Part shown: in pieces, positions 11,963 to 61,341 of the stretch
Numbering within the stretch: the first letter of the stretch is position 1
Layout of the letters: the number at the start of each line of letters is the position of its first letter
Notes under the pieces: generated by a model
What the model was told of the DNA's origin: nothing
Databases searched by the model: none
Seen by the model: only the letters and a program-made list of their open reading frames with translations
Translations under genes and position numbers: made by a program
Assembly (NCBI GenBank): GCA_000004985.1
Contig: GG738885.1
Source: Naegleria gruberi
Lineage: Eukaryota
Length of the DNA: 64,000 nt
Strand: one strand, 5' to 3'

Positions 11963-11975
11963 AAGGCGGGAAAAG
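11963..11975 (-). promoter_or_regulatory. E2F-like GC-rich element TTTTCCCGCCTTGG (shares the 11-mer AAGGCGGGAAA with the SPT16 upstream site)
   Basis: This is an isolated GC-rich motif in AT-rich intergenic DNA. Its reverse complement matches the E2F half-site TTTCCCGCC. Confidence 0.25.
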
Positions 11976-20600: not shown

Positions 20601-20776
20601 AGCATTAATTTGTGTACATCGTAATCGTTCTTTTCTTCTTGATTTACCTTGCCCATAAAAACTTGGAAAATTGTGCAATTATCATATAGAGTATCTTTGT
20701 ATTTGTCAAAGTGGTCAAACAGACGAGCAAGTCGCTTGTTGAATATTTCCCCATCAATTTTATTCTCGTCTGCCAT
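17639..20776 (-). CDS. SPT16: FACT complex subunit SPT16
   Basis: Exon 1 runs from 20776 to 20520 (MADENKIDGEIFNKRLARLFDHF...LLWLIGYEFTDTIISFEPHTKSVHFFT). A 45-nt intron (20475..20519, GTAAGT...CTTTAG) follows. Exon 2 begins SANKIKMLQDIP..., reproducing the conserved Spt16 N-terminal lobe. The remaining 939 aa include the middle and PH-like domains and a long C-terminal acidic tail (DDDDEEMYIDSDDDEDDDD). Confidence 0.9.
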
Positions 20777-20812
20777 TTTTTTTTAATTTTATTTTGTGTC
20801 AAATTTTTGGAA

Positions 20813-20821
20813 GGCGGGAAA
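20813..20821 (-). promoter_or_regulatory. E2F-like element TTTCCCGCC about 40 bp upstream of the SPT16 ATG
   Basis: The reverse complement of ggcgggaaa (context ttttggaaggcgggaaacatt) is a GC island in otherwise AT-rich DNA. This is the classical E2F half-site. Confidence 0.3.
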
Positions 20822-21007: not shown

Positions 21008-21016
21008 GCGCGCCAA
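21008..21016 (+). promoter_or_regulatory. GCGCGCCAA element 25-33 bp upstream of the TMEM97 ATG
   Basis: The site atgcgcgccaattc belongs to the same CGCCAA(A) family seen upstream of the TMPK, GH31, RPL14 and IFT56/coiled-coil genes. Confidence 0.25.
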
Positions 21017-23160: not shown

Positions 23161-23513
23161 TTTTTTTGAATGCAAAATTATCCAACGTTTTTTTTTTAAA
23201 TTTAAAAAACAACTTGAAGATTGTGTGAAGAATGTGAAGTTAAATGTTATTTAAAACATTGACTATTACATATTCTGAGCTTATCATAGGCAGTTGATTC
23301 ATTGTATCTCAACTTTCTGTTCACTAATCCATAATCCAAAATGCAGCAACATGAACCATTTGCTCACACCTCAATCAACCCAAGTAAATGTGCTTTGCAA
23401 ATTAATCTTAATAAGTCTTTTAACCTTCACAACATACCTTTCATATTACCCGCCATAACAACTCTCACCTTTTCAAAAAGTAAACTCCTCAAATAATTCA
23501 TCCTCAATATCGA

Positions 23514-23522
23514 GCGCCAAAA
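23514..23522 (+). promoter_or_regulatory. GCGCCAAAA element about 40 bp upstream of the GH31 ATG
   Basis: The site cgagcgccaaaaaaa is another member of the recurrent CGCCAAAA motif family. Confidence 0.2.
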
Positions 23523-33870: not shown

Positions 33871-34024
33871 TTGTTGATAAAGCACCAACATTCCTTTACA
33901 ACAATCAAAACTCTTTCAATGACAGTGTAATCCAATCAATTCAATACTTGTTACTAAAATCTGTAAAACTCTAAAGATTCTCATCACACAATAAAATTAA
34001 CTTTTTTTTGCATTTAAAAAAAAA

Positions 34025-36274
34025 ATGTTTTTGCAAAAGTCAAAAGTGAGCAGAGTTTTGGTTCACACCTCTGCTCGCCATCAGCAGCAATCTCATCATC
34101 AATTTAAGAAGAACAATGTTGTTGTTCATCATGGCACCAACGGAATGACTTCATCATTGACTAGACACAGATCCATCGCTTTGAATAATAGCAATTTTAT
34201 AGAAGCTTCATTATCCAGCTTGGTATCATCCAATAATAATAATAATAATCATAATGGATTGAATAGTCATGTAATTATTAGTAATGCTAAACAGAAGAGT
34301 TATTCTACTACCTCTTCTTCATCTTCTTCATCTTCTTCATCTCTTTCAGTTTCTAAACCATCAAATCAACAAACAATTTTAACCTTTATTGAAACAACAA
34401 AAAAGAAGAGAATTGAGACTGAAAAGAAGGAAATGGTTAAAGATATTCTTGATACCTTCTCCGATGACCCATTCACATCTAAATTCTTGACTAACATCAT
34501 TTCAAGCAAGGTTTTTGCATATTCTACACCAAAGAAATTGAAGGATACCTTTCAAGTTTTATTATTGAGAAAATCTAGAAAGACTATTCTGTCTAGTAAA
34601 TTTGATGAATTACCGGAAGAGAGACAATATTCATTAATGTGTAAAACATTGAGCGAAGACCTTCTTCCCTTCATTCAAGAATACATTAGTGAAGGAAAAT
34701 TCGATTTCTTGAAAAAGGATACTATTTTACAATCACTCTTCCTTCCAACAAGATCTATGAGATATATTTCTAGAGATGTTGCTTTATATCTTTTGGAGAA
34801 TAATACTTATATGAAATTGAATATCAAGAGAAGTATTGTTGAAGATGCAGTGCTTTCATATTATAGAGTTATGGAAGATTTATCAGGATTTACCAAGTTT
34901 GTTACTGAGAATCAACTCGACATGTCTGTTCTTCGTTATGGAATGTTCATAGAATTGATTAATAAGAATGGAGATTCTAATTCATTAACAACTGTTTTCG
35001 AGGAATTGTTGAATTATCTTTTACAGAGAGAAGAGTTAAATCTCACTCCTAAAGAATGGGATATTATTTCCAAGTCTTTTAGTTTAGCTATTAATCATTA
35101 CCAATTATTAGGAGAACTTGACAAGGCAGAGGAATTATTCAGTCTTTCCATTCACTCTCAAAATCTGTACTCTAAACCATCCAATTTTAAAACTGAAAAG
35201 GACATTTCAATTTTGAAATCACATATTTATAGCTCTTTGACTACATTCAATTCAATAATCAAGACCTACCTTAATGCTGGAATGGTAGAACAATCTTACA
35301 AGTTAGTGGAAGTTGCATTTGCAGAGTTAGCATATTTGGCAAACAAGAAAATTATTAATGCTCCTCTTGTAAAACAATCCAAGCAATTCATTTCTATCAT
35401 CAATCCATTGTTGAATGTACTTATTTCAAGGGGTAATTTGCAAGAAGCTGATAAGGTAGTAACATCGATATTTGACAAGTCATCATCTTTGCAAAAATCA
35501 TATAACCGTACTATGAACCAATTGTTTACTACTTCTGACTATTCAATTAATGCTGACCGTGTTACTTTCTTGATACTTATCAGAAGACATAGTATTGATG
35601 GAAATATTACAGAAATTGTAAATATTATGAGAAATATGCACGTTTTTGGCGTAAGTCCATCCAATGAAATTCTTCAGTCAGCCATTGTTAGTTTGGCCTT
35701 CAATGGTCAATCTGCTGGTGTTGAAGCACTATTACAATTCTTAGTTTCTGAATTTGATTACAAACTCACAGATTATGCTGCTTATGCCATAATGAAGTGT
35801 TATGTGCAAACAGGAAACATTCAAAAGGCTGAAAGAGTTTTAGAAGAATATTCTGGAATTGGCAAACCAATTATTGGCATGTATAATGTTGTCATTGGTT
35901 CTAATCTGACTCAACTCCATAACTATGAAGCAGCTTGTCAATATTTCTTCAATGCTGTACAGCAATCCGGATTGGCTTTCGCTGTTAACCAACATACCTT
36001 TACCCCATTCATTAACTTTTTCACAATTGCTGCCGATGAAACAGCTTTAAAGTGTATCAACACTCTTCAGACGCTTGCTAATCAAAATCCAAAGGAAACA
36101 GCATTCTTAAAATACTCTCAAATACTGAAAACTATTTATGAAGATATTTCAAAGGGAAGAAAGGGTGAAAATAATGGAGCATCAGTGGAATCTGTTGTTG
36201 AACAAGCAGTTCAAAAGACAAAGTCATTACTCTCTCAAGCTAAGAGTGAAATACATAAGGAAATGCGTAAATAA
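34025..36274 (+). CDS. Pentatricopeptide-repeat (PPR)-like protein, probably organellar
   Basis: The N-terminal region is basic and S/N-rich, with a polySer tract. The C-terminal half has degenerate ~35-aa helical repeats with PPR-like spacing (TFNSIIKTYLNAGMVEQSYKL, AYAIMKCYVQTGNIQKAERVL, MYNVVIGSNLTQLHNYEAACQ). Confidence 0.45.
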   Translation: MFLQKSKVSRVLVHTSARHQQQSHHQFKKNNVVVHHGTNGMTSSLTRHRSIALNNSNFIEASLSSLVSSNNNNNNHNGLNSHVIISNAKQKSYSTTSSSSSSSSSSLSVSKPSNQQTILTFIETTKKKRIETEKKEMVKDILDTFSDDPFTSKFLTNIISSKVFAYSTPKKLKDTFQVLLLRKSRKTILSSKFDELPEERQYSLMCKTLSEDLLPFIQEYISEGKFDFLKKDTILQSLFLPTRSMRYISRDVALYLLENNTYMKLNIKRSIVEDAVLSYYRVMEDLSGFTKFVTENQLDMSVLRYGMFIELINKNGDSNSLTTVFEELLNYLLQREELNLTPKEWDIISKSFSLAINHYQLLGELDKAEELFSLSIHSQNLYSKPSNFKTEKDISILKSHIYSSLTTFNSIIKTYLNAGMVEQSYKLVEVAFAELAYLANKKIINAPLVKQSKQFISIINPLLNVLISRGNLQEADKVVTSIFDKSSSLQKSYNRTMNQLFTTSDYSINADRVTFLILIRRHSIDGNITEIVNIMRNMHVFGVSPSNEILQSAIVSLAFNGQSAGVEALLQFLVSEFDYKLTDYAAYAIMKCYVQTGNIQKAERVLEEYSGIGKPIIGMYNVVIGSNLTQLHNYEAACQYFFNAVQQSGLAFAVNQHTFTPFINFFTIAADETALKCINTLQTLANQNPKETAFLKYSQILKTIYEDISKGRKGENNGASVESVVEQAVQKTKSLLSQAKSEIHKEMRK

Positions 36275-43442: not shown

Positions 43443-44126
43443 TAGGTCAGTCGGAAGGACTTTACTTTGCAGTGTGGAAGTAGCAGTTAATTATTAGAAG
43501 CATTTGATGATGGCGATTATGGAATTGAGTTGTTGATTTTTTTTGTAATTATGCATGGTTTATTCAGCGTCTCCATATTGCTTGTCAGAATGAATAATAA
43601 TTGTGCTTACTCTCCACACAATTTGTACAATAACAACAATAAACATTCAATCCAAACAAATATAATTATTTCTCTCGAATCACATTTCCCGATTTGGGCC
43701 AAGAAGTTTTTCATATGTAAAAAAAGTTGGTAAAAATCCCAATTTTCTCAATCAAAACCACCTTCTTACTACCCTCAGTAGGTGTTTAGTAACAAAAGTA
43801 ATTATTCCCTTGTTCCGAAAATTCCATGATGATATCCACCAATACTAATTATCGAAGGAATTGTATCATGTATTATCGATGTTTGGTATGCTAGAAAAAA
43901 TATTTGTACTATTGCTCATCTAAATATTCACCACAGAAGTTCTATTAATCGAGGTAATACTATCTTTAATGTCCTTCAATTTACCATTATTATTGCTTGA
44001 TGATGAAAGCATGAAAATTGGTATTATTAAAAATCATGCCTCATTTTTTTTCATTGTAAATTACCAGTAGGTTAGACAACCTAGAATTTTGAAAAAGTTT
44101 GTTGAAAAAAAAATCCATAAATCTCA

Positions 44127-44134
44127 CGCCAAAA
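44127..44134 (+). promoter_or_regulatory. CGCCAAAA element abutting the RPL14 start codon
   Basis: The site ctcacgccaaaaATG belongs to the same motif family found upstream of several genes in this window. Confidence 0.2.
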
Positions 44135-44596
44135 ATGCCATCAAAGTTATTCAGTCAACTCTTGGTTCAAATCGGTAGACCAGTCGTCTTCTCATCTGGT
44201 GCCAACAAGGGAAAGTTAGCCGTTATTGTTGATATTCTCGATGCCAACAGAGTTTTGGTTGAAGGTGAACAAATCCCAAGACATATTGCTTGTACTGGTG
44301 ATATTCAATTGGTTAACGCCCTCGCTGCTGTTACCTCTGCTTCCACCACTGAAGAAGTCGTCAAGGCTGCCCAATCATCTGAAGTCCAATCTGCTTATTT
44401 GGCCAGTCCACTTGTTAAGTTGCACTTGAAGAGAGTTAAGAGACAAAACTTGACTGATTTCGATAGAGTCAAGGTTCAAATCTTGAAGAAGAAGAAGAAC
44501 GCTCTCATCAGAGAAAAGCTCTCTGCTTTGGTCCAAAAGAACGGAAGTGAAGTTGTGAAGAAGCTCGCTGCTAAGAACGCTCCATTGAAGCAATAA
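44135..44596 (+). CDS. RPL14: 60S ribosomal protein L14e
   Basis: MPSKLFSQLLVQIGRPVVFSSGANKGKLAVIVDILDANRVLVEG matches the eL14 N-terminal KOW-like region. The C-terminus is Lys/Ala-rich. Codon usage is biased toward C-ending codons, typical of a highly expressed gene. Confidence 0.9.
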   Translation: MPSKLFSQLLVQIGRPVVFSSGANKGKLAVIVDILDANRVLVEGEQIPRHIACTGDIQLVNALAAVTSASTTEEVVKAAQSSEVQSAYLASPLVKLHLKRVKRQNLTDFDRVKVQILKKKKNALIREKLSALVQKNGSEVVKKLAAKNAPLKQ

Positions 44597-44791
44597 ATTT
44601 TATAAAACAATAATTAAAATTCACAAATCTGTTCTTTCTTTTCCGATCATCATTAAACTAATAATAAAATCTAGGATATTGTTGATTTGCAGGATTTTGT
44701 TGAATTAAAGTGAAAATAGATTTTTATCTCCTGAAACTATTTCAAACTAATTAAGGCTGCAAGGTATTGCATTCTAAAAACTTCACATAAT

Positions 44792-46843
44792 TTATTCTTG
44801 CTTTTCCAACTCGTTAAACCTCTTTTGCAAAACTTTCATTCCTTCCTTTTGGTAACTCTCCTTTCTTTTCTTATTTGCCTGTCCGAGACCTCCTCCAGTG
44901 TTGGATTTTGCAAAGCCAAGACCAGTATTTTTTTCTGTTTGTTTGGCACTGATTGGAGTGGTGATACCTGACTTGTTCTTACCCAATCCTTCACCTTTTG
45001 TCCAACCAAGCTTTTCTAACATTTTCTTACCGACATTGTTATCGTCAATTTCCTTCTTTTCCAATTCCTTGGCATTTACTGGCTTTGTATCACGCTTTCG
45101 TTTTACTCCTTGTTGGGATTTACCATTTTCTCTATTGAGTTGTGAGGTGGCCTGCTCAATATCCTTTTCCAATTGTTTTAATTGTTCATTGAATTCAGGG
45201 TTAGGAACAAATCCTCCTGAACTGATAACCTCAATGACTTGCTCCTTTTCCTCTTCTTGGGGTTTAGGAAGAGATGGTCCAATTACTTTGCCTTCAGTTG
45301 TTGGATTCTTTTCCTCAGAATTGTCGTTTTGTTCGCTTGCATCGGTTCCTTCAGCAGGGAATGCAACGTAAGTTTTATCTTCCTCATTATAATACATCCA
45401 GAATCCTCCTGCACAGTCATAGTAGTATCCGGTATTGATATCATAGTAATAATTAAGTTCACTATTATAATAGTAACCAGAGTCTGAATCAAAGATAAAG
45501 CCACTTTCTGCGAGTGCTTTATCCTGTTTTGAAAGGTTAGTATCTGCCGAGGAGCTCTCTATTATTTTTTGCTTTTCTTCTAGCTTTTGATCTGTGCCAG
45601 TATAACTGTATAAGGAATTCCAACTGGCTATTGTTGGTTCAGATTCATTTTCTTGTGACTGTTGACGTTTGGCATAGGCAACGTTAACACGAACACCATC
45701 AATAAATAGTTCAGAAACTTTTGATAGAGCGTTTGTGGCATCCTATATTGAATATTGTAGAAATGTAAAATATCAATAAAACATACCTCTAAAGAGAAAT
45801 ATTCCACAAAACCAAACTGTCTGGATATTTGGGTCGTCTTATCTCTAATAATTCTACATGCCTTGATTGGGGCAAAGGTAGAAAATACACTCAATAACTA
45901 GATATTGATAAGCTGAATGAATATTATAAACCAATCATACCGTTGTTTCATTAGTGAGAAGGTTAAGACCTCTCACAATAAGCTCTGTAGTTGGTGTGAC
46001 CTCTTCGTTAACATCGGAGGCATCTTTTGCCAACTCGTCTTTTGGAATAGAACAACCGAAACAATTAGTTCTATGCATAAAATTTTTAGTATTGCACTAT
46101 CAAAGAATTAATCAAATATTCAGTTATCAAAACAACTTACATGACCACAAAACCAATCCTTGAAACTTTTTTCATTTTCTTTTCCTTCCTCCGAGTGAGG
46201 TGTTTTGTGACTGTACTCCAACTCTACATAATCATTTCCAATAAACATTCCACCATTTGAAGAATTCATAAATTGCTCACTTTCGGTTAATGTAGCAAAG
46301 TCAACAAAACCAAATCCTCTACTTTGTCCAGTTGCTTTATCACGAACAATTCTGACACGTGTTGGTTGTAGTCCATGAATTTGAAAAACAAAATTTGAAA
46401 TATCATCTTCACTTGCAAGATTTGACAAACCTTTCAAAATAACAGAAGTAGATGGTTGAAAATGATTGCCTCTACGTTCTTCCCATACTTTTCTCTTCTT
46501 TTCCCTAAATTTTTGTTTGCCTTCATCTGGATTTTTAAACTTTTCTTGTAATTGTTCATATGCTTGTGTATGTCTTGGTTTTAATTGATGACCATCTTCT
46601 TCCTTTCTCTCCTGATGTGTTGTATTACTGAACGGATTACTTTTCAGTGTTCTTTGAAAAGGTTTCTTTTGATCCGATCTATTAAATCGTCATAATACAA
46701 GTTATTGTTAGATTGATTTTTGTTTAGTTTTAGATATGAATTTTATCCTGAACCGAACCTGTTTGAAGTGGTGTGACCGTGATCCCGGTTACTGCCAGTA
46801 TTATTTGAATATTGTTGTTGGTGTTGAGAATTGTCTTGTGGCA
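44792..46843 (-). CDS. RBM5/RBM10/SUA-like splicing factor: RRM, RanBP2 zinc finger, RRM, OCRE, G-patch (about five exons)
   Basis: An N-terminal exon starts at 46843 (MPQDNSQHQQQ...). The RRM1 exon (RGFGFVDF) ends ...KDWFCGH at a GTAAGT donor. A 44-nt intron follows. The RanBP2-ZnF exon (CNTKNFMHRTNCFGCSIPK) fits WxCxxCxxxNx6CxxC across the junction. The RRM2 exon contains RQFGFVEY. The final exon carries OCRE Tyr repeats (SGYYYNSELNYYYDINTGYYYDCAGGFWMYYNEEDKTYV) and a G-patch (GKKMLEKLGWTKGEGLGKNKSGITTPI). Confidence 0.75.
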
Positions 46844-47080
46844 TTTTTTCTAAGATTTAAAAATAATCTAATTTTCTAATATTTTATATTATATAATTCT
46901 TTAATTGTACCTTAATTGGCAAGTGGTTAATGATATTGTATTTAATATTGTATAGTAATCTTCATGTAAATAAACATTCATAATAAATAAAATCAAATAA
47001 TTACTCATTAATTTAAATTATTAATATTATTGTTTTAATTTCTTTTAAAAATAAAAATATATCACAATTAGATCATCAGG

Positions 47081-48483
47081 ATGAAGAGAAAATTAAACAA
47101 TAATTCCTCCTCACTGAGTAGTCTTTCGGAAGGCTATAGAAGTGATGATGAAAGTAGTCAGAATGCAATTGATGAGGAAAAGCCATCAAAAAAGTTAGCA
47201 ACCTCATCTTCACCAACAACTAATGACAATCATCACACAGATGGTGAAGAAAAGGATTTAACCAACAAGACAGTTATTATAGAAAAAAGTAATGATAATG
47301 ATTTTACATCAATACCTTCGGAAGAATTTGATATTGAACAAATTACAGGTTTTTCTGCATGTTCAACAGTGGAAAATTACGAGTTTTTAAATAATATTGG
47401 AAGTGGAACATTTGGTGTTGTGAGTCGAGGAAAATGTAAAGAAACAGGAGAGATTGTAGCTTTAAAGAGAATTAAATTAATGAAGGAATTTACTAGTAAG
47501 GAGGGATTTCCATTGACAGCACTTCGTGAAATGAATACACTTCTCCAGATGAGACATGAAAATTTAGTTTGTGCTAGAGAGGTTGTATGTGGATCTGATT
47601 TAAACAAAGTCTTTATTGTTATGGATTATATGGATCATACTTTGAAGGATGTTCTTGATAGATATAGCTTTAGTATGAGTGAATGTAAAAGATTAATGAT
47701 ACAATTATTATTAGGATTGCAATATATGCATGAGGATTGTTGGTTAATTCATCGTGACTTGAAGACTTCTAATATTTTGATGGATAATAAGGGATCTTTA
47801 AAGATTTGTGACTATGGTCTTACGAGAAAATATGGTTCTCCAATTAGAGATAATTATACTCCAGTTGTGGTGACACTTTGGTATAGAGGTGAGTTTTTTA
47901 TTATGTTTTAAATATGTTGATGAAATAATTTCAAGCACCTGAACTCTTATTGGGAGCTAAGAAATATTCGACACCAATTGATATGTGGAGTGTTGGATGT
48001 ATATTTTATGAAATAATTACTGGTGAATATTTATTTACATCTGACAGTGAAATTGGTCAAATGAAGAAAATATTTGAAGTTTTAGGAAAGCCAACAGAAT
48101 CAGAATATCCTGGATTTTCACAACTTCCAGCAATTAAGAAATTTAAATGGGATATTAGTAATGTGAAAGGAAGAGCTCAATTAATTAGACTTTTAAAAAC
48201 TCAATATCAACTCTCTGATCAAGGATGTGATCTTTTCAATAGATTATTATGTTTTGATCCAGAATCTAGAATTACAGCAAGGGAAGCACTTGCCCATCCA
48301 TTCTTCAAAGAAGCACCTCTTCCACAAACTAAGGAAAATATGCCGACATTCCCATCTGTACAAACAATTGACAGCTCAAAGAGAAAATCAACAAGAGAAT
48401 CTGGAAGAGATGAAGAACAAGTAGTTCAACACTCGAGAGCTAATGAATTGGAGAAGGAATTTAATAGATTCATGACGGAATAA
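47081..48483 (+). CDS. Cyclin-dependent kinase, CDK11/CDK10 (PITSLRE)-like, two exons
   Basis: The N-terminal extension is S/D/E-rich. Kinase subdomains include GSGTFGVV, the cyclin-binding helix PLTALREMNTLL, HRDLKTSN and DYGL. Exon 1 ends at 47888 (..TLWYR + G). A 47-nt GTGAGT...TCAAG intron (47889..47935) follows, and exon 2 restores WYRAPELLLG. Confidence 0.85.
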
Positions 48484-48485
48484 TA

Positions 48486-48497
48486 TTTCCCGCCAAA
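48486..48497 (+). promoter_or_regulatory. E2F-like element TTTCCCGCCAAA 42-53 bp upstream of the thymidylate kinase ATG
   Basis: The site taatatttcccgccaaataaa is nearly identical to the textbook E2F site TTTCGCGCCAAA. It lies upstream of an S-phase nucleotide-metabolism gene. Confidence 0.35.
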
Positions 48498-48538
48498 TAA
48501 ATCATTTAATTCCAAACGTTTTTTAAATTATCAAAAAA

Positions 48539-49186
48539 ATGTCTACAAACATTTCTAGAGGAGCCTTTATTGTTTTCGAAGGATTAGATCGATGTGGAAA
48601 AACTACCCAAACAAATAAATTGGTAGAATTATTGAAAAATCAATTCGGAGTAGTTCATGAAATTGCCTTCCCTGATAGAACAACTGAAACTGGAAAATTA
48701 TGTGATGAATATTTGCGAAACAAGAATAATTTGAATGATCGTGCTATTCACTTGATGTTTTCTGCTAACAGATGGGATAAGATGCAATGGATTCAAAAAA
48801 CACTCCTCTCCGGTGAGCATGTTGTTTGTGGAAGATATGCATACTCTGGTGTTGTTTATAGTGCTGCAAAGGGAATTGACAGAAAGTGGTGTAAATCACC
48901 AGATGTTGGTCTTATTGAACCTGACTTGGTGATTTATCTTCAAGTGGATCCATCTATTGCCTCTACAAGAAAAGAATATGGAAATGAAAGATATGAAAAG
49001 GAACAATTCCAAAAAGCTGTTAAGGAACAATTTGAAACTTTATTTGAAGAAGATGGTTATAAGAATGTTAAAGTTATCGATGGAACAAAGAGTATTGAAG
49101 AAATATCTGAAGAAATTGCAGAAATCACCAAATCAACAATAGAGAAAGTTAAGTCTGAACCTCTTAGAAAGTTGTGGAGTGAATAA
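48539..49186 (+). CDS. DTYMK: Thymidylate kinase (dTMP kinase)
   Basis: The P-loop GAFIVFEGLDRCGKTTQ, the DRYAYSGVVYSAAKG region and the LID-like segment are collinear with eukaryotic TMPK. The gene is a single exon starting 55 bp after the CDK stop. Confidence 0.9.
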   Translation: MSTNISRGAFIVFEGLDRCGKTTQTNKLVELLKNQFGVVHEIAFPDRTTETGKLCDEYLRNKNNLNDRAIHLMFSANRWDKMQWIQKTLLSGEHVVCGRYAYSGVVYSAAKGIDRKWCKSPDVGLIEPDLVIYLQVDPSIASTRKEYGNERYEKEQFQKAVKEQFETLFEEDGYKNVKVIDGTKSIEEISEEIAEITKSTIEKVKSEPLRKLWSE

Positions 49187-49214
49187 GTTTTTCAATACAA
49201 TATATGATAATTTA

Positions 49215-50952
49215 TTAATTTGAGATGAGATTGTTTTCATGAGCCCATTTGGCAATAATTTGAAGGATAATATTCTTTTCTTCTCTGCTTGAATTCTTCA
49301 ACATGTGGACAATATCACGTAAAGTTTCACTCGATTCCTTTCCTATTACTATTTGTTGGAATACACCTATACAAGCACCTCTCTTGCCTTCCCAAAATTC
49401 AGAATTCGAATCCAATCTTTCCAGAACATCGAAAGCCTTAGCAGCATAGTAATACGATCCAATCTTGTAACAATCATTAGCTATTAATTGGAGCAGATTC
49501 ATAGCATCTATTGAGGTTTCCATTTTCAAATATAATTCCCAAGCTAACTCTGGTTTGTTGTTCATAATGTAACATCTTGCTAACCAACTATTATATACAT
49601 AATCTCTCTTGTAACTTTCATCTGCAGCCATTGAAAGTGCTTTTTCTCCTTCCTTATAATTTCCAACAAATGCGTGAGCAATACCATAATTCCAATGGAA
49701 ATCACTATCATCTTGGAAGAAGTTTTCTACAGATTGAAGATATACTATTACATCGGCAAAACGTTTTGTCAAGAAGAAGCATGATGCCATACATTGTCTA
49801 CCTGGAATTGTGTCACATTCAGTATCTGATGTACCAACAAGTTGGAAGTAGTGTTCTGCGTTTTTGAGATGTTCTCTCGAATCGTGTAATTGTCCTTTAC
49901 ATGCATTAACAACACCCTTCAAAATATATTCACTTGCTTTCATTGGTTCCAAATCCTTAATTAATTCATATGCTTCATCTACATCTCCATTCTTTAAATG
50001 GTATATTACAAGGTTTAGCTTTGCTTCTGGTAAAATATCAAGAAGAGGAGGAAGCACTTGAAGAGCATTCTCTCCACTTCTGAAAACTACCATATTGTGC
50101 TTGATCAAATAGTTTTCAGCAGTATGTGAAGTTTGTTGGAGTTCTATAATTGGTTGGAGAACAGCTTCTGCTTTCTTTCCAGAATATGTCTTGAAGATGT
50201 TGCAAGCTCTAAGATTAAGTGCTGTTGGACTGTCTGGGTGTTTTTGAAGATAACTGCTCAGTACTTCCAAAGAAATATCAAAGAAATCTAATTTAAAGTA
50301 ACAAAGAGCTACATAGATTTGCAATGCTTCAAATGAACTGTCCTCCATCAATATATTTTTGTAAATATTTACAGCTGCTTGAACTTGGTTTCTAGAAAAG
50401 TGCATTGCAGCCAAACTCAATTGATCTTCAATATTGTTATCATTCAATTTTTTGTGACATTGATTCACTAAATCCTCTTTTTGGAGTTTATCTGCAACAT
50501 GGAACAAAATTCTATTTTGGAGTGGATTATCTGGACCTTTAATGCAAGCTTCATAAGCTTCTTCATATTCTCCTAAGAAGAAATAACAACAAGCAATATG
50601 AAGGAATACAAATGAATCCTTTGTTTTAGTGTATAACTCTTCCAAATATTCAATTGCTTTAGCGTATTCTCCTAAATGAAAACAACAATAGGCCAACCAT
50701 GGAAGTGTTGGTCTCACTCTTGGATGTTCCTTTCCGAGCCCCTTAAAGAACTAAAATACAAAATATTATTCCGACTTATCTTCTTATTAAACATACCTCC
50801 AACACTGCAATAGCACCAGAAAAATCACGTTGTTGTATCATTGATACGATATCAATTTCTGTTTGTTCCGTCTTTTTGGTGTTTGCAACAGGTTTCTTTG
50901 CCTGTTGGGCAGCTGCTGTTTTCAGCTTTCCTGTAACTGGTCGTTTGAACAT
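49215..50952 (-). CDS. IFT56: Intraflagellar transport protein 56 (TTC26 / DYF-13), two exons
   Basis: Exon 1 runs 50952..50797 (MFKRPVTGKLKT...MIQQRDFSGAIAVLE). A 46-nt GTATGT...TTTTAG intron (50751..50796) follows. Exon 2 begins FFKGLGKEHPRVRPTLPWLAYCCFHLGEY. TPR repeats run throughout. The N-terminus matches TTC26 (KRDFTGAITLLEFKRHVGEEE..LWIGYCAFHLGDYKRALEEYE). The stop lies 28 bp from the convergent TMPK stop. Confidence 0.85.
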
Positions 50953-51019
50953 TTTTTATTCTTGTTGTTGTTTTCTTAGAAGTGCAAGTAATTGAGGTTA
51001 GACGATTAATCGTAAACAG

Positions 51020-51031
51020 TTCGCGCCAAAA
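51020..51031. promoter_or_regulatory. E2F-like palindromic element TTCGCGCCAAAA, with a second GGCGCC 25 bp away, in the IFT56/coiled-coil bidirectional promoter
   Basis: The site cagttcgcgccaaaaccagttcaaagaaatggcgccacaaa lies in the 265-bp divergent intergenic region. Confidence 0.3.
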
Positions 51032-51217
51032 CCAGTTCAAAGAAATGGCGCCACAAACAATTAAAATTATTAAATTTATAAAAAATTCAAAGCTTTGCAG
51101 AACTACAACCTCTTGATAATAGATTATTCATAATATCTGCATTGAAATTGAATCAGAATCACGAATGATAGTTAATTGCTAGAGGAGGAAATATTGGAAT
51201 AATTATTAAAAGGAATC

Positions 51218-53011
51218 ATGAAACGAAGAGATGTCAAACCACCCGATTCAGCAAAAGGACTGATTTCAAGAGGAACCTCTGCAAAGGCAGGCACTTTAAT
51301 GAGACCTCAAAGTGAGTCAGTGAAGAAAACGTCAGAGTTTGGAGTTGTTAGGAATGTTCCATTTACAAAGGGTTTAAATACTGGTATGATGAATAATCAC
51401 TTTACATCACAAACCGAATCACAAAAGGATTTATTGGAAAAATTTAAAAGTGATAGTAGGGGTATTGCTAGTAAATTAACTCAACTCACAAAGAAAGTAT
51501 CTACCAAAAAACAACAAATCAAAAAGGTTGCTCATAACACCGAGTGGGGAAACGAATGGAAAAAGCTCAGAAAAATTCAAAGAGAGTTGGAAAGTGAAAT
51601 AGTGGACGAAATGAAGGCCGAGAGAGAAGAGTATTATTACGAAATAATGAACCAAGTTGAAGAGGGACAGAATAATCCTCTGAAATCAATTAGAGAAAGT
51701 ATTCATCGGCTTATTCTGGATAAAATTGAGAGGACAACGTGTGAGATATATAATTTAGAGAACGAAATCAATACCTTGTTTAAAAATTATGAGAGCTTAA
51801 ATCCCAACTCTATTGATATGGAAATTGATAATAATACATTCTCAGCGGATGAGTTTGTCAATAATATTTTGAGATCATTCAACTATTCCATAGACACGAC
51901 TTTAACCTTAATTCTTGAGGAGTTCAAGAAGAAGATCAATCAAATAATTGAGCTATACAAACAAGGGAAAGTTGTTCTTACTCCACATAATTGGGCAAGC
52001 GAGGATCATGAAAGATATAAACATGTTTATAGACAATATCAAAATGGAGAGCATTTTGGAAAGAATCTAGTATCATATTGGGAGCTACTGAAAAATACTC
52101 TTCCAACGAAATCGGAAACAGATATCAAAGATCATGATATGTGGTACAAGAAAGTTCACAAAATTGAGATCCACAAGATTAAGGAAAACAAGGAAAGACT
52201 TTTGAAAGATTTGGAAAAGATAGAGAGCATCAGTAAAGAGACAATCTCTTTTTATATCGAATCAGAGGAGAATAAGAAGAAAGAGGAATTGGAAAGGAAA
52301 CGGTTTAATGTTATTGCAGAAGAAGCTCGCAGAATGTTAGAGGAACAATTGATTTTGAAGGAAGAAAAAACCAAGGTAGACAATGAGAGAAAGGCCAAGG
52401 AGGAAGAAATCCGAAAGCAAGAGGAAGATGAAAGAGATTTGAGGGAAAGAGAGAGAAGAGAAAAGCTTAAAGAACAATTAGAGAAATATTTCAAAGAGAA
52501 GGAAGAAATCAATCAAATTCAAGAGGAGGAAAGAAAGAAAGAACAAGAAAGATTGAAAGAAGAACAAGTCCTAACCCAAAAACTCAATAAGGAAAGAGTA
52601 GACTTTAGAAAAAACAAAGAGTTTGAAAAGTTGGAAAAGAAAAAAGAAGAACAAAAAAAGAGAGAAGAGGAAGCTCTTAAAAGGGAGGCTCAACTCAATA
52701 AGCTCATAGAAAGTGTTTATGAGGAGATGAATTTATTGGAAATAGATATTGATACAAAACGTCTAAATCAACCAACTCAATCACTATTAAACAAGCAAAA
52801 GGAGGAAGAAGAGCAAGTTGAAAAGCTCAAACTTTATGGATATACTGCAGATCAATTAATGAAGGACAGAAAGTTCAAATTGCAACTCCTACTACAGGAA
52901 GCTGGATTACTCAATACTGATTATGCAAGAGAAATATTCAGTACATTGAAACCATCTCGATTGACAAGAGTAGATAATCTGACAACTGACCAAAAGACTC
53001 GCATCAACTAA
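51218..53011 (+). CDS. Charged coiled-coil protein (E/K/R-rich), hypothetical
   Basis: The 597-aa ORF is intact and starts on an ATG. Its central ~250 aa are E/K/R heptad-rich (EERKKEQERLKEEQ...). It shares a divergent promoter with IFT56. Confidence 0.55.
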   Translation: MKRRDVKPPDSAKGLISRGTSAKAGTLMRPQSESVKKTSEFGVVRNVPFTKGLNTGMMNNHFTSQTESQKDLLEKFKSDSRGIASKLTQLTKKVSTKKQQIKKVAHNTEWGNEWKKLRKIQRELESEIVDEMKAEREEYYYEIMNQVEEGQNNPLKSIRESIHRLILDKIERTTCEIYNLENEINTLFKNYESLNPNSIDMEIDNNTFSADEFVNNILRSFNYSIDTTLTLILEEFKKKINQIIELYKQGKVVLTPHNWASEDHERYKHVYRQYQNGEHFGKNLVSYWELLKNTLPTKSETDIKDHDMWYKKVHKIEIHKIKENKERLLKDLEKIESISKETISFYIESEENKKKEELERKRFNVIAEEARRMLEEQLILKEEKTKVDNERKAKEEEIRKQEEDERDLRERERREKLKEQLEKYFKEKEEINQIQEEERKKEQERLKEEQVLTQKLNKERVDFRKNKEFEKLEKKKEEQKKREEEALKREAQLNKLIESVYEEMNLLEIDIDTKRLNQPTQSLLNKQKEEEEQVEKLKLYGYTADQLMKDRKFKLQLLLQEAGLLNTDYAREIFSTLKPSRLTRVDNLTTDQKTRIN

Positions 53012-56981: not shown

Positions 56982-59900
56982 ATGACATCATTAGATTGGC
57001 TGCAAGTGAGCGGAATTCGTTCCTTCGATCACACAAGTGGAGCACAAACGATCAAATTCTTCAAGCCTTTGACAATTATTTTGGGAGCCAATGGTGCGGG
57101 AAAGGTTTGTACTAGTAAAATTATATAAATATTAATATTAATATGCGATCAAATATTAAATTATGATAGACGACAATTATTGAATGTTTGAAATGTGCAA
57201 CAACAGGTGAATTGCCACCAAATTGTGATCGTGGTAAATCATTTATACACGATCCCAAAGTTTCGGGTGATTCGGAAGTAAAAGGTCAAATTAGGCTTCA
57301 ATTCAAGTCTGGCAACAAGAAACGATACATCACAGTAAGAAGTTTTCAAGTTTCACAGAAAAAGAAAACAACTCAGTTTAAACAATTGGAGGCTGTACTA
57401 CAGACTAAAGGAGAAGATGGAGAAGTGAAGAGTAATAGTTACAAATGTACAGATATGGATAAATTGATTCCGGAATGTATGGGTGTTAGCAAAGCTATTT
57501 TGGAAAATGTTATATTTTGCCATCAGGAAGAAGTAAATTGGCCACTCAGTGACAGTTTATCTTTAAAGAAAAAGTTGGATGATATTTTCTCTAGTACCAG
57601 ATATTCTAAAGCTTTGGAGGCTATTAAAAAAACAAAGAAAGAGATAGGACAACAACTTTCGGATTATGAAAAGGAATTGGCTGTAGCTGAAACAGAAAAA
57701 TCTCAATCTGTCAAGCTGAAAAAAGAAGCTGAATCAGAAATTGTTAAACTACAAAAATTGAAGGAAAGTATGGAAAAATATGAAACAGAAATGCAAGAAA
57801 TTGGTGATAAGGTATCAAAATATGAAGGCGTTATCGAAAAAATCAATAGCTTGAAACAAAAATTCACTGAGAAGGATACTCAAAAGAAAATGCTTCAAAA
57901 GCAAGTAGCTGAGCTCTATGCCGGTTTGGAACAAGAATTCACTGAGACTGACCAGGAGGTGGAAGATTTTGAGAAAAATTTCAAGAAACAACTCGAGAAC
58001 TTGAACCAGAGCAAGATAACCACCGAAAGCTCACTGAAAACAAATGAAGTAACAAAGAATTCTGTGAACAAGGAATTGAATGGCCTGAATGAAGAATTGG
58101 GAAAGCTCAAGTCCTTTAAGGAAACTCATGAGAGTAAATTAATGGATATCAGTGCTGAAATATTCACTTTAGCTGAGAGATACAAGATTTCTGGATATGA
58201 CCAATTGCCACTTAATGAAAGTCAAATTGACGCATTTTCTAAAGTGATTTCAAAACTTTATGAAGATAACAAGAAAGCTTTTGATACCTTGAAAATGCAA
58301 CACAAGTCAGAAGTCGATCAACTTACTAAGGAAATGAACGTTGCCCACCAAAAGAAGGAAACCGTTCTCAAACAAGTTAAAGTTACAGAGCAACTCAAGA
58401 CGAAATATGAGAGAGAAGAAAAAGATTTGAAAGAAAAACTTAGTAAGATTAATACTAATGCAGCTATTGTTAAGAAGGCAGAAGAAGAATTCCAACAATT
58501 AAAAACAGCACTGAAAGAAAAGCAAGAAAAGAAAGAATCTGAAAGTTTCAAAAATCAAATAGAATCAAATAATAAGCAATCTAAAGAAATCACTCAAAAG
58601 ATTTCCTCCATCAATAAGGAACTCACATCCAGAGAAAAAGAGAAGGAAATTAGTTTCAAGATACAAAATCTGAAGGAAGAACTCACCAAACACAACTCTT
58701 CCCTAGAAGAAAAGCTTCTAGACCTTAAAGGACGTTACGAAACTGTTTTAGGTGTTCAAGAAAATGATGTAACAACAGCCAACATTGAACCAAAGATCAA
58801 AAACCTTATTAAGAAAAGCACGGAACAAGTTAATGCTAAAAACGTTTCTATTCAATCGACAGAGAAGAGCATTTCTGTAACCAAATCTAAACTTGAATCT
58901 ATTACAAACCAGGAAAAGAAGATTAAGAGAGACATTGAAACCAAAGAAAAGAATGTCGAATCAGTGCTTCCTTCTGGTAAGTCTTGGGAAGAGGCTATGA
59001 GTGAAGCTGAAGAAGCTGTTTCTGATTTAAGAAACGAGGTCAGTTTGACAGAGGCTCTCAAAATGTGTTATGAAAACTTTGTAAAGCACGCTCGTACAAA
59101 CCATCAATGTCCTGTTTGTGAAAGAGGCATGAACACAGAAGAATGCTCTACTTTTGAAAGTTTACAAATGACCAAGCTTGAACAAACTCCAAAGTTTCTC
59201 CAAAAGAAGAAAGCCAAGTTAGAAGTGGCTATCCAACAACAAGAAAAGATTAGAGAAATCAAACCAATTATTACAACTATCCAAAACTTGAAGAGTAAGG
59301 ATCTTCCAGATGCAGAAAAAGAACTTGCATCTCTGAATGAAGAAGTACAAAGACTCAACTCTATTGTTTCTAAATTCACACAAGAACTCGATACTCTCAA
59401 GCAAGAAGAAAAGAAAGCCAACGATCTTTTACCTAGTGTTGCTGATTTGAAAATCTTACAATCAGCTATTCGTTCAAGTCAACAACGTTTAACTGAGCAA
59501 GAAAATGAACTCAAAAAACTTGGACTTCCAGAGGATCTTGTACCATACGAAGACTTGAAGCGAAATCTTGAAGAATCCCAAACTTTGAGAGAGAAACTTG
59601 CCCAACAAAATCAAAACTTACAAGTTGAATTGGAGAAAGCCCAGAGTGAGTTAACAAAACTCAATAACGAGGTTCACCAAAAGCAAAATTTATTACAAAA
59701 ATTACAATTTGAATTGAAGGAAATGGAAAGATTAAATGAAAGTCTTGCACAAAAACAAAAAGATTTGCAACAAACAATCACTGATATTGAAAAACAACAA
59801 CAAGATATACCTACCCTTGAAAAGACGGAGCAAAATCTTAACACCTCACTAACAGAATTGAAAGAAAAGCATAGAAAGGAAGAATACATCATGGAAGGTA

Positions 59901-60997
59901 CAGTCACTGAGTATCAACAAGAGCTTTCAAAATTGAATGCCCTGACAATGGAAATTAGGAAGTACAGAGAAAGAAACGTTGAAGACAATCTCAGTACTGT
60001 TCAAATGAAAATTGCCAAACTAGAGGTAAGATTGGAAGAAAATAAGAAGGAATATGAAACCCTTTCCGAGAATCTCAAAAAGTACAACAGCATGCTTGAA
60101 AAGCAAAATGTTATCAAAAAGAATATTGAATCCAATCTCAAATACAGAGCAAAGAAGAAGGAAAATCAACAAGTATCAGATGAATGTGATAAACTCTCTG
60201 CTGAAATTGAAAAAATCACAGGTAGTGATGCATCCTTAGATAGTTACCAAGATATCAAATCCCTCAAAGAGAGACAAACAGAATTATCGAACAAGAGATC
60301 ACAAATATCAGGTGCCAGAAGTACCATAAAGAATAGAGTTAAATCTATTCAAGATGATCTTAACTCTGATCAATACAAGGATATCGATAACAAGCACAAA
60401 TCCTTATTGATCAAACTGGTAACTACCAAGCATGCTGTAGAAGATTTGGATAAATACTCAAAAGCTTTGGAAAAGGCATTGACAAAATACCATAGTATGA
60501 AAATGGCTGAAATTAATGAAATTATCAAAGAACTTTGGCAAAAGACTTACAGAGGTAACGATATTGATACCATTTGCATCAAATGTGATACTGAAACAGA
60601 AAATAGTAGAAAGACTTATAATTACCGAGTTGTAATGGTAAAAGGTGATGTGGAATTGCAAATGAGAGGACGTTCTTCTGCTGGTCAAAAAGTATTGGCC
60701 TGTTTGATTATTAGATTAGCTCTTGCTGAAGCATTCAGTATTGACTGTGGTATTTTGGCTCTTGACGAACCAACAACTAATCTGGATTTGGACAATATTA
60801 ACAGTTTGGCCGAATCTTTACGATTCCTGATTGAAGATAGAAGAAAATTGTCAAACTTCCAACTCATTGTCATTACTCACGACGAAGAGTTTGTGAAAAA
60901 GCTTGGAAGAGCAGAATTTGTGGAAAATTACTATAGAATTTCTAAGGATCCAAGAAATGGAGGTTCCATGATTGAACAACAAAAGATTGCTGAATAA
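56982..60997 (+). CDS. RAD50: DNA repair protein RAD50, two exons
   Basis: Exon 1 is 56982..57104 (MTSLDWLQVSGIRSFDHTSGAQTIKFFKPLTIILGANGAGK, the Walker A P-loop). A 65-nt GTTTGT...GATAG intron (57105..57169) follows. Exon 2 begins TTIIECLKCATTGELPP. The protein has a long coiled coil with a zinc hook (HQCPVCERG), and a C-terminal signature/D-loop region (SAGQKVLACLIIRLALAEAF, LALDEPTTNLD). Confidence 0.92.
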
Positions 60998-61341
60998 TTT
61001 GTAAATAGTTGTACTAGTACTTGTTAACTTATTGGAAAATAAAAATGATTCCTCAATACTATGTACAACAGTACCCTCACCAAGTTAGAAGATTCCACCA
61101 TCACATCATTAGATATTTATCTTCATTGATTTCATGTATCACACATTAATACAACAATAAGATTGATGGAAATCGGCGCGACTTTTTCAATTCAAAAATC
61201 TGGCGAATACAAAGTCCCTCCTCAGTTATAGAAATCCTTTTTAGTCTTTCAAACTTCTCAAACCTAAAAACAGCCCACAACAAGATCAAACAACAAGAAC
61301 ACATTGAAGCTGCTATAAATTCTTCTTCTTTTAAAAAACAA

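What the first reader, a model, noticed from the sequence alone, without database searches (positions are those of the whole stretch)
48486..48497. Recurrent GC-rich E2F-like motif close to start codons in an AT-rich genome
GC islands of the form TTTCCCGCC or (T)TCGCGCCAAAA occur 25-80 bp upstream of several ATGs. They are thymidylate kinase (48486..48497), SPT16 (20813..20821, minus), the IFT56/coiled-coil divergent promoter (51020..51031 plus GGCGCC at 51056), TMEM97 (21008..21016), GH31 (23514..23522) and RPL14 (44127..44134). Related copies lie at 11963..11975 and 61172..61185. TTTCGCGCCAAA is the textbook E2F/DP site. TMPK and SPT16 are classic S-phase targets, so a conserved E2F-like cell-cycle regulon is plausible. 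Because so many sites sit so near the ATG, the element could alternatively be a core promoter or TSS-proximal motif.
Basis: partly seen in the sequence, partly recalled or inferred. Interest (0 to 1): 0.6.

Follow-up and report, generated by a model that had tools for sequence, protein, structure and literature searches.

The report
E2F-type promoter sites in Naegleria gruberi
Short GC-rich sequences just upstream of several Naegleria gruberi genes match the binding site of the cell-cycle regulator E2F/DP, and two are kept across related amoebae, so they are probably real regulatory sites of a familiar kind.

Summary
The motif is real and non-random. TTTSSCGC occurs 6 times against 0.85 expected. 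TTSSCGSS occurs at 5 loci, all within 200 nt upstream of a start codon (P about 2e-5 with a motif-blind definition of gene starts).

The window is Naegleria gruberi NEG-M. That genome encodes E2F, DP, an E2F7/8-like DEL and RB. The E2F DNA-binding domain is close to that of human E2F4 and keeps the RRIYD motif.

- **SPT16 site:** kept as an E2F-consensus variant in 6 of 6 lineages, including Willaertia and a more distant relative.
- **IFT56/CCDC148 site:** kept in 4 of 4 lineages.
- **TMPK site (the focal one):** kept in two closer relatives, once as TTCCCGCC and once as TTGGCGCC. It is missing in N. fowleri, N. lovaniensis, Willaertia and Acrasis.

Not every listed copy holds. The RPL14 CGCCAAAA abuts the ATG and lacks the core. 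The copies at 61172 and at GH31 are weak. The GGCGCC is at 51047, not 51056. An unlisted match at 57096 encodes the RAD50 Walker A motif.

Only about a quarter of promoters carry the motif, so it is not a general core-promoter element. The sites are most likely E2F/DP-family binding sites. The cell-cycle regulon idea is plausible but untested here. This is a new member of a known kind, of moderate interest.

The parts
48486..48497 (+). TTTCCCGCCAAA, the full 12-bp E2F consensus. It starts 2 nt after the stop codon of the upstream kinase gene and ends 41 nt before the TMPK ATG at 48539.
   Evidence: A site at the same position is kept as TTCCCGCC in L009/L010 and as TTGGCGCC in L011. It is absent in N. 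fowleri, N. lovaniensis, Willaertia and Acrasis.
20813..20821 (-). TTTCCCGCC, 36 nt upstream of the SPT16 ATG at 20776 on the minus strand.
   Evidence: A consensus variant is kept in 6 of 6 lineages: window, L001, L003, L004, Willaertia L002 and the distant L012, which has TTTGGCGCCAAAA. The start codon is confirmed by the NEG-M protein model.
21008..21016 (+). GCGCGCCAA, 24 nt upstream of the ATG of the TMEM97/EXPERA gene at 21041. It is the second site in the 264-nt divergent SPT16/TMEM97 spacer.
   Evidence: L001 has the near-match TTGGCGGA at the equivalent position. Pfam EBP/EXPERA match.
51020..51031 (+). TTCGCGCCAAAA in the divergent IFT56 (ATG 50952, minus strand) / CCDC148 (ATG 51218, plus strand) promoter. 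It lies 67 nt from the IFT56 ATG and 186 nt from the CCDC148 ATG.
   Evidence: An E2F-type site is present in N. fowleri (TTGGCGCCAA), N. lovaniensis (GGCGCCAAA) and Willaertia (TTTTGGCGGCAAA). IFT56 identity comes and CCDC148 orthology.
51047..51052 (.). GGCGCC, a second palindromic core 15 nt downstream of the first site.
   Evidence: It is not seen as a second copy in the orthologous promoters.
11965..11974 (-). TTTTCCCGCC, 153 nt upstream of the ATG (11811, minus strand) of a large gene of unknown function with a weak ankyrin match (8090-11811).
   Evidence: Gene function is unresolved. No ortholog was available for a footprint.
23514..23522 (+). GCGCCAAAA, a weak half-site match 36 nt upstream of the GH31 ATG at 23559. 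A bare CCCGCC core lies at 23449-23454.
   Evidence: It matches TTTSSCGC but not TTSSCGSS. No match was found upstream of the L001 GH31 gene as called.
61172..61185 (+). ATCGGCGCGACTTT, a GGCGCG core without T/A flanks, 156 nt upstream of the ATG at 61342. Doubtful member.
   Evidence: It fails both TTTSSCGC and TTSSCGSS.
44127..44134 (+). CGCCAAAA directly abutting the RPL14 ATG. Not a member: it has no S-rich core and sits in the leader or Kozak region of a promoter that has its own conserved blocks.
57096..57103 (-). TTTCCCGC on the minus strand inside RAD50 exon 1, where the codons encode the Walker A residues G-A-G-K. A coding match consistent with the chance background; not a member.

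Best explanation
The recurrent GC-rich elements, with consensus (T)TT-SSCGSS-AA(A), are binding sites for the E2F/DP family of winged-helix transcription factors of Naegleria gruberi. The binding partner could be the typical E2F+DP heterodimer, the E2F7/8-like DEL protein, or both.

The sites lie in the very short promoters of this compact genome, typically 25-80 nt and at most about 190 nt upstream of the ATG. Several sit in divergent gene pairs.

By analogy with animals and plants, E2F/DP bound there would activate the adjacent gene or genes, and would repress them when the RB pocket protein is recruited. Expression would then be tied to proliferation state.

**Shown:**
- the motif, its enrichment and its position
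- its conservation at SPT16 and IFT56/CCDC148
- the presence of cognate factors with a conserved DNA-binding domain

**Inferred:**
- actual binding
- the direction of regulation
- cell-cycle dependence
For: 1. **Sequence.** The TMPK site TTTCCCGCCAAA is the full E2F consensus. All strong sites fit TTSSCGSS. TTTCCCGCC is cited as the commonest functional E2F site in Arabidopsis (PMC3734150).
2. **Enrichment and position.** TTTSSCGC has 6 matches against 0.85 expected. All 5 TTSSCGSS loci lie within 200 nt upstream of an ATG, P = 2e-5 with motif-blind starts. E2F-core k-mers are the top non-A-run upstream k-mers. In the Naegleria and Willaertia loci all further TTSSCGSS sites are intergenic, although 68-88% of the sequence is genic.
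3. **Footprints.** The SPT16 site is present in 6 of 6 lineages within unalignable flanks. The per-region chance is 0.004-0.04, and the product for the five non-window lineages is about 1e-9. The IFT56/CCDC148 site is present in 4 of 4 lineages. Orthologous sites vary within the E2F consensus, for example TTCCCGCC, TTGGCGCC and TTGGCGGC. This is what selection on binding would give, rather than selection on the exact sequence.
4. **Factors.** The window is N. gruberi NEG-M (864/864 identity). NgruE2F, NgruDP, NgruDEL and NgruRB are listed in the supplement of Medina et al. 2016. E2F and DP are confirmed in NCBI as XP_002668864.1 and XP_002674586.1. Both carry the Pfam domain E2F_TDP, with E2F_CC-MB and DP domains respectively. 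The E2F domain aligns to human E2F4 (1CF7) with a largely identical recognition region, including RRIYD.
5. **Specificity.** Only 6 of 25 promoters carry a site. CpGs flanked by four S bases number 8 of 61 upstream against 2 of 656 elsewhere. General CpG retention upstream is only 1.6-fold.
6. **Human parallels.** DTYMK is a DREAM (E2F4/DP) target. SUPT16H, SSRP1 and TTC26 (IFT56) are in the p53-repressed set described as largely RB-dependent (PMC6753476).
Against: - There are no binding or expression data for any site.
- The gene set is mixed. TMEM97, GH31, IFT56/CCDC148 and an unknown ankyrin-like protein are not canonical S-phase genes, and RAD50 has no promoter site.
- The focal TMPK site is not conserved in N. 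fowleri, N. lovaniensis (remnant TTGCGCC), Willaertia (TTTCCCTC) or Acrasis.
- Only 64 kb plus about 140 kb of related loci were available, so there is no genome-wide test.
- Transcription start sites are unknown.
- Some curated gene starts were defined after the motif had been seen. The motif-blind control mitigates this.
- Promoters retain CpG in general: observed/expected 0.63 against 0.39.
Confidence: 0.7

Rival explanations
1. The element is a promoter-proximal or core-promoter motif read by a factor other than E2F/DP, for example a GC-box zinc-finger protein or a lineage-specific factor. Its resemblance to the E2F site would then be coincidental.
For: - The sites lie close to the ATG, 24-67 nt for four genes.
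- The gene set is functionally mixed.
- Asymmetric cores mostly read CCGCC on the sense strand of the nearest gene. That would suit a directional promoter element.
- GGCGGG overlaps the Sp1-type GC box. This point rests on my own knowledge.
Against: - Only 6 of 25 promoters carry it.
- Distance to the ATG varies from 24 to 186 nt, and reaches 182 nt in Willaertia SPT16.
- The T-run and A-run flanks and the palindromic variants GGCGCC and CGCGCC fit E2F, not Sp1.
- Variation between orthologs stays inside the E2F degeneracy.
- The cognate E2F/DP with a conserved recognition helix exists in the same genome.
- The Willaertia kinesin site has the opposite orientation.
Confidence: 0.15
2. There is no specific factor. 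The GC-rich CpG clusters are passive by-products of unmethylated promoter DNA in a CpG-depleted genome ('mini CpG islands'), or of chance.
For: - The window is CpG-depleted: observed/expected 0.41, against 0.80 for GpC.
- Upstream regions retain more CpG, 0.63 against 0.39.
- One exact match (57096) and two cores (14368, 39286) are plainly coding or chance hits.
Against: - Dinucleotide-preserving shuffles do not reproduce the counts.
- The enrichment is specific to S-flanked CpG with T/A shoulders: 8 of 61 against 2 of 656.
- The same motif recurs at the same promoters in lineages whose flanks are unalignable and whose proteins are only 44-77% identical.
Confidence: 0.05
3. The element acts at the RNA level or in 3'-end formation, as a terminator or poly(A)-associated signal of the upstream gene or as a 5'-UTR element. 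It would not be a DNA-binding site.
For: - The TMPK site begins 2 nt after the stop codon of the upstream kinase gene. This arrangement is kept in L009-L011.
- Four sites are close enough to the ATG that they could lie within a 5' UTR.
Against: - The SPT16/TMEM97 and IFT56/CCDC148 sites lie in divergent spacers with no upstream 3' end.
- The sites are pseudo-palindromic and occur in palindromic forms, which is typical of dimeric DNA binders.
- No common strand relative to an upstream gene exists.
Confidence: 0.05

Closest known systems
Canonical E2F/DP binding sites of animals and plants (TTTSSCGC; TTTCCCGCC and TTTGGCGGG in Arabidopsis; structure 1CF7 of E2F4-DP2 on DNA)
   Same: - The same 8-12 bp consensus, with a CG core and T/A shoulders.
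- A promoter-proximal location.
- Cognate E2F, DP, DEL and RB proteins in the genome.
- An E2F DNA-binding domain that aligns closely with human E2F4.
- Targets that include TMPK/DTYMK and SPT16, whose human orthologs are in pocket-protein/E2F-linked repression sets.
   Different: - The organism is a heterolobosean amoeboflagellate (Discoba) with a 33% GC, CpG-depleted, very compact genome.
- The sites sit tens of nucleotides from the ATG.
- Binding, RB dependence and cell-cycle periodicity are untested.
E2F-like upstream motifs of Cryptosporidium parvum ([C/G]GCGC[G/C], GGCGGG; PMC3734150)
   Same: - An AT-rich, compact protist genome in which E2F-like GC-rich motifs are among the most over-represented upstream motifs.
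- The motifs occur before functionally diverse genes, not only replication genes.
- The inference is computational, with E2F/DP present in the proteome.
   Different: - Cryptosporidium lacks an RB ortholog according to that paper, whereas N. gruberi has RB.
- The evidence here is cross-species footprinting rather than expression clustering.
- The sample here is 64 kb rather than a whole genome.
E2F4/E2F5-MCIDAS/GEMC1 control of centriole amplification and cilia genes in animal multiciliated cells
   Same: An E2F-type site is conserved in the shared promoter of two cilium-associated genes, IFT56 and CCDC148, in an organism that builds basal bodies and flagella de novo.
   Different: - Only one ciliary promoter was observed.
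- No geminin-family co-factor was examined.
- No expression or binding evidence exists.
- The link is a hypothesis only.

Membership tests
E2F/DP binding site (cis-element) | Sequence matches the E2F consensus TTTSSCGC / TTSSCGSS with a central CG core | tested here: met
   Met for 48486, 20813, 51020, 11965 and 21008. Partly met for 23514. Not met for 44127 and 61172.
E2F/DP binding site (cis-element) | Over-represented, and located in promoter-proximal DNA | tested here: met
   Six matches against 0.85 expected. All 5 loci are within 200 nt upstream of an ATG, P = 2e-5. TSS positions are unknown, so position is measured from the ATG.
E2F/DP binding site (cis-element) | Cognate E2F and DP proteins, with conserved DNA-contact residues, encoded in the same genome | tested here: met
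   The window is N. gruberi NEG-M. E2F is XP_002668864.1 and DP is XP_002674586.1. Both have the Pfam E2F_TDP domain. RRIYD and the flanking recognition helix match human E2F4 in 1CF7. DEL and RB are listed in the Medina 2016 supplement.
E2F/DP binding site (cis-element) | Evolutionary conservation of individual sites under divergent flanks | tested here: met
   SPT16 6 of 6 lineages and IFT56/CCDC148 4 of 4. TMPK only 3 of 7. TMEM97 is a near-match in L001. GH31 is not conserved in L001.
E2F/DP binding site (cis-element) | Physical occupancy by E2F/DP (EMSA, DAP-seq, ChIP) | not testable with these tools
   No binding data exist in the searched literature.
E2F cell-cycle (G1/S) regulon | Target genes enriched for replication and cell-cycle functions, and periodically expressed | tested here: inconclusive
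   Two of the six or seven motif-bearing genes, TMPK and SPT16, are replication-linked. The others are TMEM97, IFT56, CCDC148, GH31 and an unknown gene. RAD50 lacks a site. Published RNA-seq time courses exist, but their tables are not held.
General core-promoter / TSS element | Present in a large fraction of promoters, at a fixed distance and in a fixed orientation | tested here: not met
   Six of 25 promoters. Distances are 24-186 nt. Palindromic variants and at least one opposite orientation occur.

The most novel reading that the evidence does not exclude
The E2F-type site shared by the ciliary genes IFT56 and CCDC148 is conserved from Naegleria to Willaertia. It could mean that an E2F-family factor (E2F/DP or DEL) helps drive or gate the amoeba-to-flagellate programme, that is, de novo basal-body and flagellum assembly.

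This organism reportedly lacks RFX, FOXJ1 and XAP5. The arrangement would parallel E2F4/5-multicilin in animal multiciliated cells and would point to an ancient link between E2F and centriole or cilium biogenesis.

A related broad reading is that E2F is an unusually general promoter factor in Naegleria, used by roughly 15-25% of genes, as proposed for Cryptosporidium.
Probability: 0.12. Interest if true: 0.75.

Novelty: new member of a known kind. Interest (0 to 1): 0.38.

Why it matters
Almost nothing is known about cis-regulation in Naegleria or in Heterolobosea generally. No paper in the searched library links E2F to Naegleria promoters.

Conserved, consensus-grade E2F sites next to an E2F/DP/RB toolkit would give the first concrete transcription-factor-to-target links in this lineage. 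[quoted passage not shown]

They also offer a handle on two programmes for which synchronised RNA-seq already exists: mitosis and flagellate differentiation. The conserved site at a ciliary gene pair is the one element a specialist might not have predicted.

Tried and rejected
- **Chimeric query.** I concatenated five window proteins into one homology search to save a capped search. It returned one irrelevant oyster fusion protein and wasted the search.
- **ORF mask.** A stop-to-stop ORF mask used as a coding/non-coding partition misclassified upstream sites, because ORFs run upstream of the ATG. I replaced it with curated starts and a motif-blind proxy based on the A-rich context before the ATG.
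- **Exact look-up of the TMPK ORF.** Nothing was found.
- **Functions of motif-bearing and neighbouring unknown genes.** Pfam, NCBIfam and PDB sequence searches gave only a weak ankyrin hit for the 8090-11811 gene.
- **Willaertia kinesin with an upstream site.** Kinesin-2 chains were marginally the best PDB hits. Only the C-terminal part of the motor domain was compared, so the class is undecided.
- **Expression data.** Fritz-Laylin & Cande 2010 and the published Kennard 2025 paper are not held. The preprint has no supplement held.
- **RFX X-box reading of the IFT56 site.** Considered and rejected. The sequence does not fit GTNRCC...RGYAAC, and Naegleria reportedly lacks RFX.
- **Sp1 GC-box reading.** Rejected because the GGCGCC and CGCGCC variants do not fit it.
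- **CHR-like TTTGAA near RAD50.** Not pursued. It is expected by chance in AT-rich DNA.

Full report
**What the window is.** The window is 33% GC, gene-dense and eukaryotic. The SPT16 ORF is 864/864 identical to Naegleria gruberi NEG-M XP_002674312.1, so the window is N. gruberi.

- TMPK (48539-49186), SPT16 and RPL14 are confirmed by Pfam.
- TMEM97/EXPERA and GH31 are confirmed by Pfam.
- IFT56 matches PDB chain 8bd7_E at E = 8e-172.
- The 'coiled-coil' gene at 51218-53011 is 50% identical to the N. fowleri gene annotated CCDC148 at the syntenic position.
- RAD50 lies at 56982-60997.

**Observation.** All listed sequences exist at the stated coordinates, with one exception. GGCGCC is at 51047-51052, not 51056.

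The classical consensus TTTSSCGC occurs 6 times against 0.85 expected from dinucleotide-preserving shuffles, and none of 100 shuffles reached 6. Five of the six lie upstream of start codons. One coding hit is what the chance background predicts.

A symmetric definition, TTSSCGSS, gives 7 strand matches at 5 loci against 1.72 expected. The loci are 11965, 20813, 21009, 48487 and 51020.

All five lie within 200 nt upstream of one of 25 curated ATG starts, a space that is 6.7% of the window. Some of those starts were curated after I had seen the motif, so I repeated the test with a motif-blind rule: an ATG preceded by at least 5 A in the six preceding bases and followed by at least 25 open codons. 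That rule finds 41 sites. The 200-nt upstream space is then 11.5% of the window and still holds 5 of 5 loci, binomial P = 2e-5.

An unbiased k-mer comparison of upstream against the remaining sequence puts GCGCCA (5 against 0), CCCGCC (4 against 0) and CGCGCC (3 against 0) directly after the A-runs of the start-codon context.

The window is CpG-depleted: observed/expected 0.41, against 0.80 for GpC. Promoters retain somewhat more CpG, 0.63 against 0.39. The excess, however, is specific to CpGs flanked by four G/C bases: 8 of 61 upstream against 2 of 656 elsewhere.

**Which copies belong.**
- *Strong:* TMPK TTTCCCGCCAAA (41 nt before the ATG), SPT16 TTTCCCGCC (36 nt), TMEM97 GCGCGCCAA (24 nt), IFT56/CCDC148 TTCGCGCCAAAA (67 and 186 nt), and TTTTCCCGCC 153 nt upstream of a large gene of unknown function with a weak ankyrin match (ATG 11811).
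- *Weak:* GH31 GCGCCAAAA, plus a bare CCCGCC at 23449, and the copy at 61172.
- *Not a member:* RPL14 CGCCAAAA. It abuts the ATG and lacks the core. It also sits in a promoter with its own conserved blocks, CATTGTAAA and GTTTGAAAAAAAATAC, shared with N. fowleri, N. lovaniensis and Willaertia.

**Comparative evidence.** Homology searches with SPT16 and TMPK and contig look-ups gave orthologous loci. They come from unnamed Naegleria-like assemblies (L001, L003, L004, L009-L011), N. fowleri (L005), N. lovaniensis (L006), Willaertia magna (L002, L007), Acrasis kona (L008) and a more distant organism (L012, with SPT16 only 44% identical).

*SPT16.* Every lineage has an E2F-type site upstream of SPT16.

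| Lineage | Site | Distance from site start to ATG (nt) |
|---|---|---|
| Window | TTTCCCGCC | 44 |
| L001 | CCCGCCAA | 48 |
| L003 | TTTCCCGCCAA | 57 |
| L004 | TTTCCCGCC | 42 |
| Willaertia (L002) | TTCCCGCCAAA | 182 |
| L012 | TTTGGCGCCAAAA | 109 |

The flanks do not align: mean column identity is 48% in AT-rich sequence, and the motif stands out as an island. The chance of at least one match per 200-nt region is 0.004-0.037 by dinucleotide shuffling. The product over the five non-window lineages is about 1e-9.

*IFT56/CCDC148.* The divergent promoter has a site in all four lineages. N. gruberi has TTCGCGCCAAAA, N. fowleri TTGGCGCCAA, N. lovaniensis GGCGCCAAA and Willaertia TTTTGGCGGCAAA.

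*TMPK, the focal site.* The site is kept just after the neighbouring kinase's stop codon in the closest relatives. It reads TTCCCGCC in L009/L010 and TTGGCGCC in L011, which is a switch between two consensus variants. N. fowleri has no site. N. lovaniensis has only a remnant, TTGCGCC. Willaertia has TTTCCCTC. Acrasis has none. The focal site is therefore younger or more labile than the other two.

*Other loci.* Across the Naegleria and Willaertia loci, every TTSSCGSS match is intergenic although 68-88% of the sequence is genic.

**Trans-factors.** The supplement of Medina et al. 2016 (eLife, PMC4862756) lists NgruE2F, NgruDP, NgruDEL and NgruRB. E2F and DP are in NCBI as XP_002668864.1 and XP_002674586.1. 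They carry the Pfam domains E2F_TDP plus E2F_CC-MB, and E2F_TDP plus DP, respectively.

The E2F DNA-binding domain aligns to human E2F4 of the E2F4-DP2-DNA structure 1CF7 at E = 7e-25. The stretch [24 protein letters not shown] is identical. DP carries RRRVYD, and DEL carries RRIYD. The RRXYD motif is what contacts the CG core; the 1CF7 paper is cited for this. The same specificity is therefore expected.

**Mechanism.** The best-supported reading is that these are E2F/DP-family binding sites in very short promoters. By analogy, bound E2F/DP would activate the adjacent gene or genes, and RB recruitment would repress them.

Human parallels are suggestive. DTYMK is a p53-LIN37/DREAM target. SUPT16H, SSRP1 and TTC26 (IFT56) are in the p53-repressed, LIN37-independent set that the authors describe as largely RB-dependent. 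The individual genes in that set were not tested.

Binding, the direction of regulation and periodic expression in Naegleria are all inferred.

**Rivals.**
- *General core-promoter element.* Disfavoured. Only 6 of 25 promoters carry the motif, spacing is variable and palindromic variants occur.
- *Passive CpG or GC retention, or chance.* Contradicted by the shuffles, by the specificity for S-flanked CpG and by the footprints.
- *RNA-level or 3'-end signal.* This fits only the TMPK arrangement, not the divergent promoters.
- *A different GC-box factor.* Cannot be excluded without binding data.

**Comparison with known systems and novelty.** The elements behave like canonical E2F sites of animals and plants. 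The closest protist precedent is Cryptosporidium parvum, where E2F-like motifs dominate the upstream regions of an AT-rich compact genome and precede functionally diverse genes.

I found no paper in the searched library that connects E2F with Naegleria promoters. A 2026 preprint reports only counts of enriched JASPAR motifs across Discoba.

I therefore rate this a new member of a known kind. It is expected once E2F, DP and RB are known to be present, but it appears undescribed for Heterolobosea.

The least expected element is the deep conservation of an E2F-type site at a ciliary gene pair. Naegleria reportedly lacks RFX, FOXJ1 and XAP5, and the regulators of its flagellar programme are unknown. 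It is one locus only and remains a hypothesis.

**Limits.** Only 64 kb of N. gruberi and about 140 kb of related loci were available. TSSs are unknown. Expression tables from the published synchronised RNA-seq are not held. Functions of several neighbouring genes are unresolved.

Noticed in passing
window 44052-44060 and about 44100-44120; L005 about 5620-5700, L006 about 5560-5640, L007 about 1960-2060: The RPL14 promoter has its own conserved blocks in N. gruberi, N. fowleri, N. lovaniensis and Willaertia: C(A/G)TTGTAAA, and G-T-T-T/G-G/C-(A)8-T-A/C-C. This may be a ribosomal-protein promoter or leader element. CATTGTAAA occurs only once in the window, and RPL14 is the only ribosomal protein gene identified among the ORFs scanned, so it could not be tested as a motif.
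   Followed up: partly
whole window: CpG is strongly depleted: observed/expected 0.41, against 0.80 for GpC. The depletion is partly relieved in the 200 nt upstream of genes, 0.63 against 0.39. This would fit cytosine methylation outside promoters. E2F cores would then be among the few protected CpGs.
   Followed up: partly
window 57090-57106: The codons of the RAD50 exon 1 Walker A motif (GANGAGK) produce an exact TTTCCCGC on the minus strand, immediately before the first intron. It is a reminder that P-loop codons mimic E2F sites.
   Followed up: yes
window 48481-48541; L009 670-720; L011 826-864: Only 55 nt separate the stop codon of the upstream protein kinase gene from the TMPK ATG, and the E2F-type site starts 2 nt after that stop codon. 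The arrangement is kept in three lineages. 3'-end formation of one gene and the promoter of the next must overlap.
   Followed up: partly
window 44135-53011; L005, L006, L007: The gene order RPL14 - G-patch/RRM - kinase - TMPK - IFT56 - CCDC148 is conserved between N. gruberi, N. fowleri and N. lovaniensis. TMPK - IFT56 - the downstream gene at the CCDC148 position is also kept in Willaertia, where no Pfam annotation is on record for that gene. SPT16 and TMPK lie on the same 474-kb Willaertia contig.
   Followed up: partly
L002 15921-15936; L007 5126-5133; L006 455-469: Three further E2F-type sites occur in relatives. Willaertia has a perfect palindrome, TTTTTGGCGCGAAAAA, between two unannotated genes. 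Willaertia also has TTGGCGGG 97 nt upstream of a 1089-aa kinesin, whose best PDB hits are marginally kinesin-2. N. lovaniensis has TTTTTGCCGCCAAAA at the edge of a 3.5-kb stretch that has ORFs but no called genes.
   Followed up: partly
window, most gene starts (e.g. 48533-48541, 20776-20785, 34019-34027): Start codons sit in a strikingly A-rich context (AAAAAAATG). A-runs are by far the most enriched upstream k-mers, and this context alone locates most gene starts.
   Followed up: partly
window 13504-15070: Two adjacent ORFs encode arrays of DUF4116 repeats, with 3 and 9 repeats and a Pfam E-value down to 6e-165. An antisense ORF overlaps them. One GGCGCC core (14368) lies inside this coding repeat.
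   Followed up: no
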